DNA of 64,000 nt, from NCBI GenBank assembly GCA_000165345.1, contig CM000429.1:768001-832000 (forward strand), in the 5' to 3' direction. Made by a program: the position numbers. Each line of letters opens with the position of its first letter. Position 1 is the first letter of the stretch. Positions 27,001-60,000 of this stretch are shown in pieces.

Positions 27001-30000
27001 TTTGCATTTAAAGATAGGATCTAATAATAGTAAATGAAATGATATTGAAATTATTATTATCTTAGTTGTAAGTAGTAAAGAATTCTTAGAATTTGTACGA
27101 ATATATATTTATATATATATATATAATTTATTCTAGTACTACTATTATTTCTTTGCTACAAGTAATTATTGCATGCAGTGAATTGCATGGCTGCGCGCAT
27201 TTTCCCTAATAATTTGTATGAATAATAATAATAGTAATATTATTATTATTATTATTATTATAAACAAATAATTTTATTAAAATATTTAACAAATAAGTTA
27301 TAATAATAACAATATCTAAAGCAGAAATAATTTTAATTTTTAGTTCACTTAAGGTCAAATAATGGAGTGATTTTGAGACAGTAAAATTATTAAAGACATC
27401 TTTCAATTTTTTTTTTTGAATCAATAATAACTATGATAAGTATTGTATATATACATATATATATATTTTCTTAAAATTAAATATTCTATCAATTTTAATA
27501 TTATATTATTAATATTATTTTCCACATGAAATTAGTATATTACGTGTTAAAAAATTATTCGCAATATTATATTTTTTGCATGTGAATGCCGGTATATGAA
27601 AAGTGTAAAAATTGTTTTAATGTGGGAGAAAAAACAAGAAAGTAAAAGTTTTAGTTCGAGAATAGTAGGAATAAGGTTATAGTGAAAATAATTTAGAAAT
27701 TTTCAAATTCGAAGAGGGATCTATAAATATATGCTATTAGTCAAATATTTAGTGTATTTTGCATGCATAGGGCGGAATAGGAAATTAGCCGCTAGATCAC
27801 ACGAATAAAATAATTAGAGGTAAATTAGAAATATATATAAAGAAATTGGTTTAATATTTTAAAACAAAACAGTAGTGGTTTATGAAATATATAAAAACAT
27901 ATAAGAGCTGATAGTTTCAAAAGTGAGGTAAATAAATGTTATTAAGATTAAAAGCAATATAATAATAATAATTATTATTATTAGTAATAACGACAACTAT
28001 AAGTAGAGATAAATTGAATAAAATTTAACAGAGATGAAGCTAAATAATGCATTATGCGGATTTTCATTGTATATGATTTTTATTTTTTTGCTAGGAAATG
28101 TTGCTAGCATACATATCAATAGAGAATTACAGAATTTGAGTATTGAAAGTGAGGGAAATATTAAAGTGGGTAATTCCGCTAAAGATTCGGAAGATGATGT
28201 TAATGACGAAAGTAATTCAATTATTAAAGGAGAAGAAGAAAAAAATAATGATCAAGGATTGACAATGAATAATACAGAAAGTGGTAATAGTACATCTACA
28301 GAGAATACTAATGATAATAACGAAACCATATCTCAAAATATAACTGAAGCAGATAGTAATAATAATAATAATGATTCACTAAAGCATCATGTATACAATG
28401 GAACTTTTGATTTAAAGAAAACATTTTTTTTGGATGGAATAGCATATAATAGTAAGTTTTAAGTAATTTGTTTATGATTTCATAAATAATTTAATTCAAC
28501 AAACTAAAACTAACTCAATTTTAATTAACTATAGGCACTACAGGTTTACCAATACTTCCAAATTTAATGGATAAGCTTGAAGATGATTATGATTTTGATG
28601 ATATGCCTGCATTGAAGGAAGCACTAGAAGTAGAGATAGGATGGATAATTATTGGAGTATGCTTAGCACTATTGGCTATAATGATTATCACAATAATTAT
28701 AGTCTCTGTTATTAAACATAGAAATAATAGAGCTAGAAGGGAAGCTGAGGAGTAATTTCTACTCCTTCTATATAATTGTTTCTTTTTTACTTAATTTTGT
28801 ATTAAAGAAGAAAAAAATGTATATTTTCTTATGATTATTAACGTATAGACTTGTATTCAACATAATATAATATTTGGATTAAATAAAGCAATAATTACTG
28901 CTGGAAATTAAGTAAAATTTATGCGGGAATATTTTTACATGCAATAATGTACTATTTTTAATATATAATATTTAAGATTCAAGCGCCAGAAAGGATTGTC
29001 ACGAGAAATAATTCCAAATTATAAATTAAGTAATAGAAAGATTTATGACAAAAATAATGCAGCGGTAGTTAAGGTAAAAAAAAGGGAGTAAAGTAAGAAA
29101 ATATTTGAGCTAAAAAAATATTCCATTCAATTTCTCAATAATTTGTAGCAGAATATTTGAGAATGATCATTAGTATATACCTAGATAGGAACATTACTCT
29201 ATTAATTGATTTTTAAATATAGGTCAATACTGGTAAAACTTGTAGCTTAAACTCCAAAGTTAGTCATATTAAAGTATATGCAAAGTAATATTTACTTTTG
29301 TGGATTTTTTTTTGGAGTTAATCCTCTCTTTTAATAATTCTTCCCCTCTAATAATATTATCTGTATCATTAATGGTGCAAAGGCACAGACTTGCAGATTG
29401 GCGCCATCTAAAAAGCCGTGTTGTCTTTAAAAATTGGGACAACACACAAAAAAAGAAAGGTTTTGGAAGATACTGAGAGAAATATAAAGGAATTGAGGGT
29501 AAAGAAGAAAATAGAATGGTGCAAATGAATAATAAGGGAATATTGGATGGTATTGAGTTAAGGGAAGGAGGAATAAAGGTTGATCAAAGTTTAGAAAGAG
29601 TGAATAAAGGACATACAGGTTTGGGAGCAGATGCGGGTAGCTTGAAAGATGAAAGTAAGCAAGTTTTAAATGCAAGGAGAGGTTTAGTTAGAATGATAAT
29701 AGATATTATATTAGGGAAAGATACTACTAAACAGTATAAAGAAGGAAGTGCAGCATATTTTATTGATAAGATACAAAAAATATTAAGATTAATAAGTTTG
29801 ATATTTTCTTTATTTATTTTGGGATTTATAATTACATCTAGAATTAATAAAGGAAGGAAAGATATTTCAAGTTCATTTCCAGTGGGATCTTTGGGAAGAT
29901 CAGTGAAATTTGAAATGATGTTAGACACTTTAGAAAATGAACGTGGAAAGTTAAGTGGGGAAGGATTATTTGGAGAAAGAAGTAAAGTTAATGATAAAGG

Positions 30001-57000: not shown

Positions 57001-60000
57001 GATGGTGAATTATTAGCATCCTGAACATTCTTTTGAATTTGAGTATTTTCAGTATTATCAGCAATATCGTCAATATCATGCAATTGTTGCTTTAAATATA
57101 ATATCAGCATATCATTGTTTCCTAAATTTTCATAATTAATACTTTGATTATAGTAATCAACTGAATGATTTGTAACACCAGTATATTGTACAGCTGATGG
57201 AGATAAATACGAGGAGAGTGAGGATGGCGAAGTCAAGTTTTTTGGCTCCCAATGTGATTCTGAAATTGTATCATTATCTGCACTATGTCTATAATTTGGT
57301 GGATTTTTACTAGATGTACCAGAACTTAAATTAGGATTTTGATTATTAATATTATTATTATTACTGTTACCATTTTCAATATTTATATGTTTTGTATTTG
57401 AATCAAATACTACAACTTCAGATTTCATAATTGATTCTGGTGATGAAGTTGATGCATCTTTTAATAATTGTGACATCTCAGATGTAGAAGTTCTTCTTGC
57501 ATGTGCAATTTGGGGACAATTCGACTTGACAAATGAAGCTCTTGAATTTTTTACATCAATAATAACATCCTTATTAATAAAGAATGATGCACCAAGTACT
57601 AAGAATGATTTATCAGAATCAAATCCCAAACAATAAGTATTTCTGTATTTTTTGTAAAGATATTGAGCTGGCTCCCATTCAACTTTTAAACCTGGGAATC
57701 CCAAAGTAATAGTTGGGAAACGTGACATTTCATTTGGATCTCTTAATTTCCAACATCTTTCACCTTTTGATGTTTCAAGCATTATCCTTGATACTGAAGA
57801 ATCAATATCAAATTCTTGTGAAGAGAATAATGTGTTAATAGTAGAAGTAGTAGTACTAGTTGTTGTTTGATTAAAATGATTTGAAACTTCATTACTATTA
57901 TTTAACTGATTGTTACTTGATTCAATATCCTCATTAGTAAAGTTCTCAGGATGTACAGTTGAATTAAAAGTATTAACAATATCTTCAATATTATTAAGCC
58001 TTCTATATACTCTTTTTCTAAGTAATGCAGCACCAGGAATTTCACCAGGGAAAATTGAAATTTGTTTAATTCCTAACTCCAATTCATTTTGAGATGATGA
58101 TGATTTAAGACCAGTATATTCCAAAAATTTGGAGCCGGCTTCAATAAGACTTCTAAAAGTTGACTTATTTTCAGTCTCTGCAATTCTTTGATTAATAACA
58201 TTCAATATTTGAATAAAAATATGCTCAGGGAAATATGATAATGTTGTACCACTATCAATAACAAGTGGAATAGGTTTTGTATTACCAGATGATGAATCTT
58301 TATGCAAAGTTAATTTAGTTTGATAAACACTTACTTTAGTTAATTGAACATAATAATTTCCATTCAAAATAGATAAAGGAGTCCAACCAATTTTTGAATC
58401 CAAATTATTTCCTCTTGAATTTGAACGTGATTGACTATTACTAGAACTTGATAAAAATGAATATCCAAGTGCTCTTTCAAACAAATTAGATTCAGAAGTA
58501 GACCTAAATGATTTATCATTGGATCCTAAAACCCAATATTCAGAATTATAACCACCAAAAGAAATCATACCACCTTCTGAACTAAAGCATAAAGATAAAA
58601 TAGCATCTTTAGCATATTTAGATCTTTTTGTCCATGTTTGGAATAATGGTGCCCTTTCTTGAGAACTTGCAGTATAAGCTAATCCAAGAATACCAGAAGC
58701 TGCTTGAGTAAAGAATAGATTAGTTTCATGAGTAATTCCACCAAAAATGGTTGATAATCCAACAACATATGGTGAAGGCTCAGAATTAACTCCTTTTTCA
58801 TTTCTGATTGCAACAAAATCCTCAAAGTAACTTCCTGATAAACTGCTTCCTTCTAAATAATGAATAGTATAAGCACATTGCTTTTTATTATTCACACAAA
58901 CTTTGCAATAAGAATGGCATGGGACTTCCCTTTTTGTTATACTTTTAAAAGGGTCATAATATGCATCAAGGTGTGTCCCACACTGTTGACATTGAGTACT
59001 ACTGAAAGCAAGAAGGTTACTTCCTGTATCCAAAATAACACTCTGTCTCTGAGGTTCTGGAAGTCCAACAAAAATATCGGAATAATAATAGGCTGTTGAA
59101 ACAATACTACCATAAGCCTTCATTTGAATTCTTGCTTCAACCCTTGAGAAGCTACATCCAAATAGAACTGCTCCTCCCAGAGTAGCAATAAGTATTTTCA
59201 TTATATTCATTCTAGTTAAATCGATTCGTACCTTCTCTTGAAATTTTTTTTTTTTTGATTTATGTCAACTCAAGAAATTATTCCAATCTTCCAGCCGTAC
59301 CTCGAAACTTATTTCGAAACTTTCCCCAATATGTTTGGCAACCAGCCTCTCACTTCCTCTAATTCAAGCTTCCCTATGTAGACAGTGCACGCAATACTGT
59401 CTATTCACACCAAGATGCAACAAAGCCTTTATTGATTTTTTTTTCTTACGCCTAAACTGCAACTCTTGCCTATTCCTGCTGTCCAATGAGCCCGCCTGAA
59501 AATATAAGGATTTCACAAGAGGGGAAATTCAAAAGTGGGAAAGGACTAAATTTACAGATTTTTCTCACCCCTTTGGGTTTGCTTTGTAATATCCTGACGA
59601 ATTTTGTAATTTCGCAGAAAAACTACAACTATGCAACTTTATCTTATTTTTCTTCTTAATCCTAATTTGAATTGCTTTATAATTATTCTATAATGCAAAA
59701 TTTTTTAGTTGGCCCCCACAGCCCGCCTCATACCTACCTAATAGTACTATTTGACTCGAAGCATAAATCCACGATTTTTTGCATACCGGCATTCATGCAA
59801 ATCAATTGCATGTGGCCTAACCATTTTTTTTTCTGTCCACATGAAAAAAAAAATAATATTTAAGAATGAATTGTGTATCAGAAAAAAGAAAATAATTCAA
59901 TTTCTAAACATGTAAAATTATTATCTAATTGAATTTAAACGACTAAATACAGATTTATTAATTTTTGTGTGAATAACCTAAGTAATCATTAAAAAAATAG

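What the first reader, a model, noticed from the sequence alone, without database searches (positions are those of the whole stretch)
27576..59801. A 20-nt element, TATACCGGCATTCA(C)ATGCAAA, recurs in three unrelated promoters
A 13-mer core (ATACCGGCATTCA) is identical at 27584-27596 (reverse orientation) and 59783-59795. The 9-mer ATACCGGC(A/G) with a following CATG is shared by a third copy at 31378. In a 64-kb AT-rich window an exact 13-mer recurrence is not expected by chance. Each copy lies 150-450 bp upstream of a start codon, so this looks like a discrete cis-regulatory site. It combines a CCGG core with the known apicomplexan GCATGCA motif and may bind an ApiAP2 factor.
Basis: seen in the sequence. 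Interest (0 to 1): 0.7.

Follow-up and report, generated by a model that had tools for sequence, protein, structure and literature searches.

The report
Conserved CCGG-core regulatory motif in Cryptosporidium
A short near-palindromic DNA word, ATACCGGY, sits with known TGCATG-type boxes in conserved non-coding modules next to invasion and egress genes of the gut parasite Cryptosporidium parvum. It is missing from the published motif catalogues I could search, so it is probably the binding site of an unidentified transcription factor.

Summary
The window is Cryptosporidium parvum chromosome 1 (cgd1_3500-3710 region), not Plasmodium. The third copy at 31379 is also real. The chance argument is wrong: about 5 GC-containing 13-mer recurrences are expected per window. 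The element is still non-random. Its unit is an 8-10 nt near-palindrome, ATACCGGY(R)T. There are 6 oriented matches (5 sites) against 0.35 expected. Every one of the five intergenic CCGG tetramers in the 64 kb lies in this context. Four sites are kept in orthologous intergenic DNA of C. meleagridis, chipmunk genotype I, C. ubiquitum and/or C. canis; they are degenerate in C. felis. Every site is accompanied within 100 nt by (TG)CATGTGG boxes, the known TGCATGYR/AP2_1 motif, and often by ACACGTA. This co-occurrence was replicated at a sixth site outside the window, but that site is exonic. Flanking genes include two probable microneme proteins (cgd1_3550, cgd1_3680) and the egress protease ASP2 (cgd1_3690). 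No searched motif catalogue lists a CCGG motif. Best reading: a new transcription-factor site within composite regulatory modules. The binding factor is unknown, and ApiAP2 binding is untested.

The parts
18982..18991 (+). Site A core, ATACCGGCAA. It lies 634 bp upstream of the ATG (~19625) of cgd1_3550, an Apple/PAN protein that is probably micronemal. Accompanying boxes: ACACGTA 18926-18932, TGCATGCA 18943-18950, ATGTGGA 18954-18960.
   Evidence: Kept as ATACCGGT in C. meleagridis. Gene identity shown by peptide EKNTEQNTEF at residue 687 (PMC8710574).
27586..27595 (-). Adjacent TGCATGTG at 27577-27584. TACGTGT (= ACACGTA on the minus strand) at 27541-27547. TTCCACATGAA (= TTCATGTGGAA on the minus strand) at 27520-27530. 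The site lies in the 1.8-kb divergent region between an MTIP-like myosin light chain gene (ATG 26216, minus strand, 1370 bp away) and a small signal-peptide/TM protein gene (ATG 28034, 439 bp away).
   Evidence: Kept in C. meleagridis. C. canis has GCATGCAAATACCGGTATG in the same orientation, though MAFFT misaligned it. Degenerate in chipmunk genotype I. Pfam MTIP_N hit is weak.
31379..31388 (+). TCATGTGGAAA follows at 31391-31401 and ATGGCGGA at 31404-31411. Upstream boxes: ACACGTA 31319-31325 and TGCATGT 31333-31339. The site lies 168 bp upstream of ATG 31556 of an uncharacterised multi-exon gene.
   Evidence: AAAAATGCTATACCGG[CT]GTTTTCATGTGGAAATAATGGCGGA is a near-invariant block in parvum, meleagridis, chipmunk and canis, in the top 1-3% of windows of that intergenic region.
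54158..54167 (.). Site D core, ATACCGGTAT, a perfect palindrome. TGCATGTGGGG at 54136-54146 lies 11 nt upstream. Further boxes: CACGTGTG 54113-54120, TGCATGCA 54079-54086, TATCCACATA 54062-54071. The site lies 300 bp upstream of ATG 54467 of cgd1_3680, a 263-aa EGF protein that is probably micronemal.
   Evidence: The block GAAATTGCATGTGGGGTTTT..TCTATACCGGT is kept in meleagridis, chipmunk and ubiquitum (top ~3% of windows). C. felis has ATACCTGCC. Gene identity from length, domains and peptide.
59783..59802 (+). TGCATGTGG at 59807-59815. GTCCACATGAAA (= TTTCATGTGGAC on the minus strand) at 59835-59846. The site lies in the 1.38-kb divergent region between the aspartyl protease ASP2/cgd1_3690 (ATG 59210, minus strand, 573 bp away) and CDC20 (ATG 60590, 798 bp away).
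   Evidence: ATACCGG[CT][AT]TTCATGCAAA is kept in meleagridis, chipmunk, ubiquitum and canis and is degenerate in felis. 59782-59801 is one of only six 20-nt windows with at least 19/20 invariant columns in the 4-species alignment. ASP2 identity is inferred from gene order next to cgd1_3680.
4937..5021 (+). Variant module G: CGTCCACATG ... TGTGCATGCAATACCGTTTTCAGAATTTATGTGGAAA. The core is ATACCGTT at 4995-5002, which lacks the second G. It lies in the 3'-3' intergenic region between TSP3 (cgd1_3510) and the AP2 gene (presumably cgd1_3520).
   Evidence: Conserved in C. meleagridis. Membership of the motif family is inferred from the shared box architecture only.

Best explanation
ATACCGGY(R)T is a sequence-specific protein-binding site. 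Its near-palindromic form suggests a dimer or a two-domain protein. It acts inside compact composite cis-regulatory modules of intestinal Cryptosporidium species. Each module combines this core with one to three (TG)CATGTGG / TGCATGYR boxes, which is the known AP2_1-type motif bound in vitro by the AP2 factors cgd2_3490 and cgd1_3520. Modules often also carry an ACACGTA box. Spacings vary: TGCATG is frequently 4-6 nt from CCGG, and the other boxes lie 5-60 nt away.

The modules lie 170-640 bp upstream of start codons, or in divergent promoter regions. They most likely set the stage-specific transcription of a subset of genes. In this region those genes are enriched for the invasion and egress apparatus: microneme candidates cgd1_3550 and cgd1_3680, the egress protease ASP2, and an MTIP-like myosin light chain.

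Shown: enrichment, exclusive motif context of intergenic CCGG, cross-species conservation, co-occurrence of the boxes, and lack of extended repeat similarity.
Inferred: protein binding, transcriptional function, which flanking gene each module controls, and the link to invasion genes.
The trans-factor is unknown. An ApiAP2 domain without a published specificity is my first guess (about 0.35).
For: Organism and genes: window ORFs are identical to C. parvum chromosome 1 proteins.

Enrichment: ATACCGGY gives 6 oriented matches against 0.35 expected. All 5 intergenic CCGG tetramers are in this context, whereas the 13 coding CCGG are not.

Conservation: sites C, D and E keep ATACCGG invariant across four species whose intergenic DNA is otherwise only 31-57% invariant. 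C. canis, whose ortholog of the CPATCC_000031 protein is 62% identical, retains B, C and E. Site A is kept in C. meleagridis.

Co-occurrence: 5 of 5 sites have ATGTGG within 60 nt although only 16 intergenic ATGTGG exist (0 of 5000 permutations reach the observed value). 5 of 7 intergenic CATGTGG lie within 100 nt of a core. ACACGTA occurs 7 times, all intergenic, and 3 of these lie 47-60 nt from a core (p = 0.003).

Replication: the only ATACCGGY found in 22 kb of additional C. parvum sequence (L013:2915) carries three ATGTGG boxes, a TGCATG and an ACACGTA within about 60 nt.

Not a repeat: no high-scoring segment pair longer than 16 nt exists among the +/-200-nt flanks.

Literature: TGCATG(T/C)(G/A) is a known promoter motif bound by cgd2_3490 and cgd1_3520 (PMC11078545; PMC4117751). 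No CCGG-core motif appears in the 25 motifs of Oberstaller 2013, in Mullapudi 2007, in the 2025 review table, or in the ATAC-seq or lncRNA motif analyses.

Gene functions.
Against: - No binding, expression, transcription-start-site or chromatin data could be consulted for these loci, so function is inferred from sequence alone.
- The sample is small: 6 sites plus 1 variant in 86 kb. The ATGTGG and ACACGTA partners were noticed post hoc, and only one independent replicate site was available.
- Site F lies in a coding exon, in an in-frame insertion of a SNIP1 ortholog. Variant G lies between two convergent genes. The element is therefore not strictly a promoter element of annotated mRNAs.
- Site B is degenerate in chipmunk genotype I, and all tested sites are degenerate in C. 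felis.
- The neighbouring micronemal TSP3/TRAP-C1 promoter has the ATGTGG boxes but no CCGG core, so the core is not a general invasion-gene mark.
- Sporozoite ATAC-seq peaks were reported to be dominated by E2F motifs without AP2 motifs.
- Distances to start codons (168-1370 bp) are long for a genome with a mean intergenic distance of 504 bp.
Confidence: 0.6

Rival explanations
1. The core marks something other than promoters of the annotated mRNAs. Candidates are start sites or promoters of unannotated non-coding or antisense RNAs, a chromatin boundary or architectural-protein site, or a replication-related element. It would still be a protein-binding DNA site, but with a different job.
For: Site F is inside a coding exon. 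Variant G lies in a 3'-3' intergenic region with no annotated promoter. Site E lies about 200 bp from a 300-nt ultra-conserved, apparently structured minus-strand RNA block. About 10% of C. parvum mRNAs have antisense lncRNAs, and 33 lncRNAs are intergenic. The host intergenic regions (0.7-1.8 kb) are longer than the 504-bp genome mean.
Against: Five of six exact sites lie upstream of, or between divergent, protein-coding genes. The accompanying boxes are established promoter motifs. No regular spacing along the chromosome is seen: intervals are 3.8-23 kb.
Confidence: 0.2
2. There is no separate CCGG-binding factor. The core is an extended or secondary half-site of the same AP2 proteins that bind TGCATGYR, or of one multi-domain AP2 that reads TGCATG and CCGGTAT together.
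For: TGCATG lies at a nearly fixed 4-6 nt from CCGG in B, E, F, G and the C. canis copy of B. cgd1_3520 is reported to recognise two unrelated motifs, and several C. parvum AP2 proteins have multiple domains.
Against: Sites A, C and D lack a TGCATG at that spacing. The protein-binding-microarray study, as far as its text shows, reports no CCGG-containing primary or secondary motif. The core is itself a near-perfect palindrome, which suggests its own symmetric recognition.
Confidence: 0.12
3. The copies are relics of a short dispersed repeat or mobile insertion and have no regulatory role.
For: Site F sits within a lineage-specific in-frame insertion of about 25-30 codons in a SNIP1 ortholog, flanked by inverted TCCACATGA / TCATGTGGA arms. 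B and E share 13 + 7 nt.
Against: Flanks of the seven modules share nothing longer than 16 nt, and box order and spacing differ from site to site. The sites are at orthologous positions in species as distant as C. canis, with the core more conserved than the surrounding DNA. No terminal repeats or target-site duplications common to the copies were seen.
Confidence: 0.05
4. Chance recurrence of a GC-containing word in an AT-rich window.
For: About 5 exact GC-containing 13-mer recurrences are expected per window, and 19 are seen, mostly in coding or low-complexity DNA.
Against: The 8-mer enrichment is 6 against 0.35, with 0 of 100 shuffles reaching 6. All 5 intergenic CCGG are in the same context. 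The motif is conserved across species and co-occurs with other boxes. The co-occurrence was replicated outside the window.
Confidence: 0.03

Closest known systems
C. parvum AP2_1 / TGCATGYR promoter motif (bound in vitro by AP2 domains cgd2_3490, cgd1_3520 and others; enriched upstream of macrogamont-associated genes)
   Same: TGCATG(T/C)(G/A)-type boxes are present in every module, often 4-6 nt from the core. Like these boxes, the core is short, (near-)palindromic, upstream-located and conserved.
   Different: The ATACCGGY core has no TGCAT and is not in any published list I could search.
C. parvum E2F/DP motifs (TTTGGCGGGAAA, TGGCGCCA)
   Same: They are GC-containing words that stand out in AT-rich intergenic DNA, and the window contains textbook copies. 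One MEME consensus in Oberstaller 2013 (CCGGCAAATTTTGGCG) begins with CCGGC. A C. canis site reads ATACCGGCATTTGGCGCCAAA.
   Different: The core is CCGG flanked by ATA/TAT, with no GCGC or GGCGG. E2F sites elsewhere in the window are not accompanied by ATGTGG boxes.
Plant DRE/CRT element TACCGACAT bound by DREB-type AP2/ERF domains (recalled from general knowledge, not tested)
   Same: 8 of 9 bases are identical to TACCGGCAT at sites B and E. This shows that an AP2-fold domain can read an ACCG-type core.
   Different: The plant element is not palindromic. ApiAP2 domains are highly diverged from plant DREBs. No binding data exist here.
Invasion-gene cis-elements of other Apicomplexa (PfAP2-I GTGCA motif; TgAP2XI-5 GCTAGC upstream of rhoptry and microneme genes; general knowledge and PMC6159514 abstract)
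   Same: A short motif upstream of microneme-, egress- and motor-related genes, probably read together with a second factor.
   Different: The sequence is different. The association with invasion genes here rests on 3-4 genes in one 64-kb region, and the neighbouring TSP3/TRAP-C1 promoter lacks the core.
Grainyhead/CP2 site AACCGGTT (general knowledge)
   Same: It shares the palindromic ACCGGT centre.
   Different: The flanks differ. To my knowledge the CP2 family is restricted to opisthokonts. This is only a formal resemblance.

Membership tests
AP2_1 / TGCATGYR motif family of C. parvum | Contains the TGCAT(G) core | tested here: not met
   The core ATACCGGY(R)T has no TGCAT. The flanking boxes TGCATGTG, TGCATGCA and TGCATGT do meet this feature.
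AP2_1 / TGCATGYR motif family of C. parvum | Bound by AP2 domains cgd2_3490, cgd1_3520, cgd8_3230 or cgd5_4250 in protein-binding microarrays | not testable with these tools
   Only the published text was available. It mentions no CCGG motif.
E2F/DP motif family | [A/T][C/G]GCGC[G/C][A/T] or TTTGGCGGGAAA core | tested here: not met
   None of the six cores contains GCGC or GGCGG. True E2F sites occur elsewhere, at 37979, 42057, 29394 and 44522.
G-box family (G.GGGG / DTGTGGGG) | A run of four G preceded by TGT or G | tested here: not met
   The core lacks it. The accompanying boxes at D (ATGTGGGG, 54139-54146) and F do match DTGTGGGG, but the boxes at A, B, C and E end in GGA or GGC.
Dispersed repeat / miniature mobile element | Extended similarity beyond the motif, with common termini | tested here: not met
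   blastn-short among the +/-200-nt flanks gives a longest high-scoring segment pair of 15-16 nt, mostly A/T runs.
Functional cis-regulatory element (operational definition) | Over-represented in non-coding DNA relative to a composition-matched null | tested here: met
   6 matches against 0.35 expected. 5 of 5 intergenic CCGG are in this context. Tested only on this window plus 22 kb of flanks.
Functional cis-regulatory element (operational definition) | Conserved at orthologous positions above the local background | tested here: met
   Sites C and D are in the top ~3% of windows. E is one of six windows with at least 19/20 invariant columns. B is kept in meleagridis and canis but lost in chipmunk. 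All tested sites are degenerate in felis.
Functional cis-regulatory element (operational definition) | Protein binding, and an effect on transcription when mutated | not testable with these tools
   Needs EMSA, protein-binding microarray, DAP-seq or CUT&RUN, and reporter mutagenesis.
Known structured RNA families (Rfam), tRNA | Match to a covariance model or tRNA model at or next to the sites | tested here: not met
   No Rfam hit at gathering threshold in the whole window. Only chance-level hits at E <= 5 around site E. No tRNAs.

The most novel reading that the evidence does not exclude
ATACCGGY(R)T is the recognition site of a so-far uncharacterised master regulator, for example an ApiAP2 domain without a published specificity. 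Together with TGCATGYR-binding AP2 factors it would drive the microneme, glideosome and egress gene programme of intestinal Cryptosporidium. That would make it the functional counterpart of PfAP2-I or TgAP2XI-5, and the site may have been lost or re-specified in C. felis.
Probability: 0.2. Interest if true: 0.75.

Novelty: new member of a known kind. Interest (0 to 1): 0.5.

Why it matters
Gene regulation in Cryptosporidium is poorly understood. The 2025 review lists only six upstream motif families, and most transcription factors have no known site. This motif is rare, highly conserved and CCGG-centred, and it sits with TGCATGYR boxes next to microneme candidates and the essential egress protease ASP2. 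That gives a concrete handle for finding the factor, for example by oligonucleotide pull-down or by screening AP2 domains. It also helps define a co-regulated gene set and design stage-specific promoters for transgenic parasites. The claim rests on about 86 kb of sequence, and a genome-wide scan is needed before it can be called a regulon motif.

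Tried and rejected
Exact protein look-ups place the window in C. parvum chromosome 1.
- The Rfam scan (gathering threshold on the whole window; E-value mode on 59150-60650) and the tRNA scan found nothing relevant.
- A literature search for the literal word ACCGGC returned only PCR-primer papers.
- Supplementary tables of Oberstaller 2013 were searched for CCGG motifs and for the expression clusters of the flanking genes. Only E2F-like consensus strings containing CCGG turned up, and the flanking genes could not be found by description.
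- The Wallbank 2025 ASP2 paper is not held, so ASP2 identity rests on two reviews and on gene order.
- C. felis was expected to give deep conservation, but its sites are degenerate. Deeper species (C. xiaoi, C. muris) were therefore not fetched.
- MAFFT misplaced the C. canis copy of site B. It was recovered by a direct word search.
- A telomerase-RNA reading of the conserved block at 59254-59600 (CCTAAAC) was dropped, because C. felis has GCTAAAC and the template would be too short (my own reasoning).
- A genome-wide enrichment test was not possible. No tool gives access to the whole C. parvum genome, and only 22 kb of extra flank could be fetched.

Full report
**Identity of the window.** Six long ORFs were looked up by exact sequence. 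Five are identical to Cryptosporidium parvum chromosome 1 proteins: CDC20 at 60590-61951, a membrane aspartyl protease at 56832-59210 (minus strand), CPATCC_000031 at 29516-30853, a myosin regulatory light chain at 25413-26216 (minus strand), and a TPR protein at 12970-17472. ORF 3099-4622 is TSP3, which Oberstaller 2013's supplement lists as cgd1_3510. G+C content is 30%.

**The observation.** ATACCGGCATTCA is exact at 27583-27595 (minus strand) and 59783-59795 (plus strand). With one indel the similarity extends to 20 nt. The third copy at 31378 reads TATACCGGCGTTTTCATGTGG. The claim that an exact 13-mer is unexpected is wrong. I count 19 dispersed exact 13-mers with at least 6 G/C, and first-order Markov sequences give 5.4 +/- 2.9.

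The real signal is at the level of the 8-mer. ATACCGGY has six oriented matches (five sites) against 0.35 expected, and none of 100 dinucleotide shuffles reaches six. CCGG occurs at only 18 positions in 64 kb. Thirteen are inside coding ORFs, and all five non-coding ones are ATACCGGY. The core is therefore ATACCGGY(R)T, a near-palindrome of ATACCGGTAT.

**Conservation.** I fetched orthologous loci from five other species: C. meleagridis, chipmunk genotype I, C. ubiquitum, C. canis and C. felis.
- Site C lies in a 45-nt block, AAAAATGCTATACCGG[CT]GTTTTCATGTGGAAATAATGGCGGA. The block is nearly invariant in four species while the rest of that intergenic region is 34% invariant, placing it in the top 1% of windows.
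- Site D with its TGCATGTGGGG box is kept in four species, in the top 3% of windows.
- Site E is kept in five species. 59782-59801 is one of only six 20-nt windows with at least 19/20 invariant columns in a 1379-bp region.
- Site B is kept in C. meleagridis. In C. canis it reads GCATGCAAATACCGGTATG in the same orientation. It is degenerate in chipmunk genotype I.
- Site A could be tested only in C. meleagridis, where it is kept with C changed to T at the Y position.
- In C. felis all tested sites carry one to several mismatches.

**A composite module, not a 20-nt element.** Every core has (C)ATGTGG(A/G) within 60 nt. Only 16 ATGTGG occur in about 21.8 kb of non-coding sequence, and 0 of 5000 permutations reach five of five sites. 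Five of the seven non-coding CATGTGG lie within 100 nt of a core.

Most of these boxes read TGCATGTG or TGCATGCA. That is the TGCATG(T/C)(G/A) promoter motif, which was reported as enriched upstream of macrogamont-associated genes and is bound in vitro by AP2 cgd2_3490 and cgd1_3520. TGCATG lies 4-6 nt from CCGG in sites B, E, F and G and in the C. canis copy of B. A third word, ACACGTA, occurs seven times in the window, always in non-coding DNA. Three of those lie 47-60 nt from a core (p = 0.003).

The flanks share nothing longer than 16 nt, so this is not a repeat family. Box order and spacing vary from site to site, as is usual for regulatory modules.

**Replication outside the window.** I obtained 22 kb of additional C. 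parvum sequence flanking the window.
- It contains six CCGG, none intergenic, and one new ATACCGGTAT, at L013:2915.
- As predicted, that site is surrounded by boxes: CCACATGATGTGGGG 10 nt upstream, then TGCATGT, TTCATGTGGAC and ACACGTA downstream.
- Unexpectedly, the site is exonic. The conceptual three-exon product is a SNIP1 ortholog (E = 2e-24 to human SNIP1), and the module lies in a lineage-specific in-frame insertion.
- A further variant module with core ATACCGTT lies between the convergent TSP3 and AP2 genes and is conserved in C. meleagridis.
- The element is therefore not confined to the promoters of annotated mRNAs.

**Neighbouring genes.**
- Site A is 634 bp upstream of cgd1_3550 (Apple/PAN protein; the published immunogen peptide is found at residue 687).
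- Site D is 300 bp upstream of cgd1_3680 (263-aa EGF protein). Both proteins were reported as very likely micronemal.
- Site E is 573 bp upstream of the adjacent aspartyl protease. [quoted passage not shown]
- Site B lies between an MTIP-like myosin light chain gene and a small secreted/TM protein gene.
- Site C precedes an uncharacterised gene.
- This suggests, but does not prove, a link to the invasion and egress programme. The micronemal TSP3/TRAP-C1 promoter has ATGTGG boxes but no CCGG core.

**Comparison with the literature.** The following list no CCGG-core motif:
- the 25 motifs of Oberstaller 2013;
- Mullapudi 2007;
- the text of the AP2 protein-binding-microarray study;
- the 2025 review table (AP2_1, AP2_2, G-box, E2F, GAGA, CAAT);
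- the sporozoite ATAC-seq analysis;
- the lncRNA promoter analysis.

Only two E2F-like MEME strings contain CCGG. Within what I could search, the core is new and its partner boxes are known. My coverage is incomplete: figures, some supplements and subscription papers are missing.

**Mechanism.** I take the core to be a binding site for a dimeric or two-domain sequence-specific factor that acts with TGCATGYR-binding AP2 proteins.
- An ApiAP2 domain is the leading candidate, for three reasons: the family dominates the repertoire, several domains have no known specificity, and plant DREB AP2 domains read the very similar TACCGACAT. The last point is general knowledge and was not tested here.
- Alternatives are a Myb or C2H2 protein, or a function at non-coding RNA promoters or in chromatin organisation.
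- No binding or expression experiment could be run.

**Verdict.** The finding is a real, conserved and previously uncatalogued member of an ordinary class, the cis-regulatory motif. It has a plausible but unproven tie to invasion and egress genes. It is worth a genome-wide follow-up, but it is not categorically new.

Noticed in passing
window 59254-59600 (minus strand): A ~300-nt block between the ASP2 start codon and site E is almost invariant in five species, including C. felis, and is more conserved than the neighbouring coding DNA. Indels in a T-run break any reading frame. RNAalifold favours the minus strand (-48.5 against -37.5 kcal/mol). One hairpin keeps pairing through G-U on the minus strand, where the plus strand would have A-C. 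There is no Rfam match. It is either a structured 5' leader of the ASP2 mRNA or an unannotated ncRNA.
   Followed up: partly
window 60211-60342: A second block, ATAGACGTGTACGTTAGGGACTAAAGGAAAGACATGGAAAATGGCAGTTAGACATGG...AAGTGACTAGTGGTCAT, is nearly invariant in all six species. It lies 250-380 bp upstream of the CDC20 start codon and contains WTAGACR-type words of Oberstaller's 'Unknown set 1'.
   Followed up: no
window 18926, 27541, 31319, 39398, 54380, 8313, 9499: ACACGTA occurs seven times in the window, and all seven are in non-coding DNA. Three lie 47-60 nt from an ATACCGGY core, and site F has one too. It is a candidate independent ACGT-core motif not in the published lists I saw.
   Followed up: partly
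window 37979-37994 and 42057-42072; 29394-29406 and 44522-44534: Exact recurrences of textbook Cryptosporidium E2F sites in four promoter regions: the 16-mer ATTTTGGCGGGAAATT, and CAGATTGGCGCCA.
   Followed up: no
L013:2659-3324 (C. parvum, 4-7 kb left of the window): The annotated 121-aa FHA-domain gene model appears incomplete. A three-exon model (exons 2659-2778, 2821-3010, 3069-3324) gives a 186-aa SNIP1 ortholog. It carries a lineage-specific insertion of roughly 25-30 residues that contains the sixth ATACCGGTAT module.
   Followed up: partly
window 27715-27830: Conserved blocks lie between site B and ATG 28034: GGGATCTAT.AAT, TTTTGCATG.A.AGGG, and TAGCCGCTAGATCACAC, the last invariant in five species. 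They match the FIRE motifs GAYCTMD and HTAGVTCW of 'Unknown set 1'.
   Followed up: no
window 5437-7107 (minus strand): An ApiAP2 gene lies in the window. Its C. meleagridis and C. parvum orthologous calls carry PF00847. By position next to TSP3 (cgd1_3510) it is presumably cgd1_3520, the AP2 reported to bind both TGCAT and the G-box.
   Followed up: no
L004 and L008 (C. felis), compared with window sites B-E: C. felis has no intergenic ATACCGGY in 42 kb, where C. parvum has four. The orthologous positions read ATTCTGGTAC and ATACCTGCC, or are unalignable. The more GC-rich C. canis keeps three sites. This suggests loss or re-specification in the felis lineage.
   Followed up: partly
window 20531-20545 and 41755-41769: An exact 15-mer, TAATCCCTGTCCATC, recurs in two unrelated ORF-covered regions (cgd1_3550 and the dynein light-intermediate-chain gene region). 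It is probably chance and was not examined.
   Followed up: no
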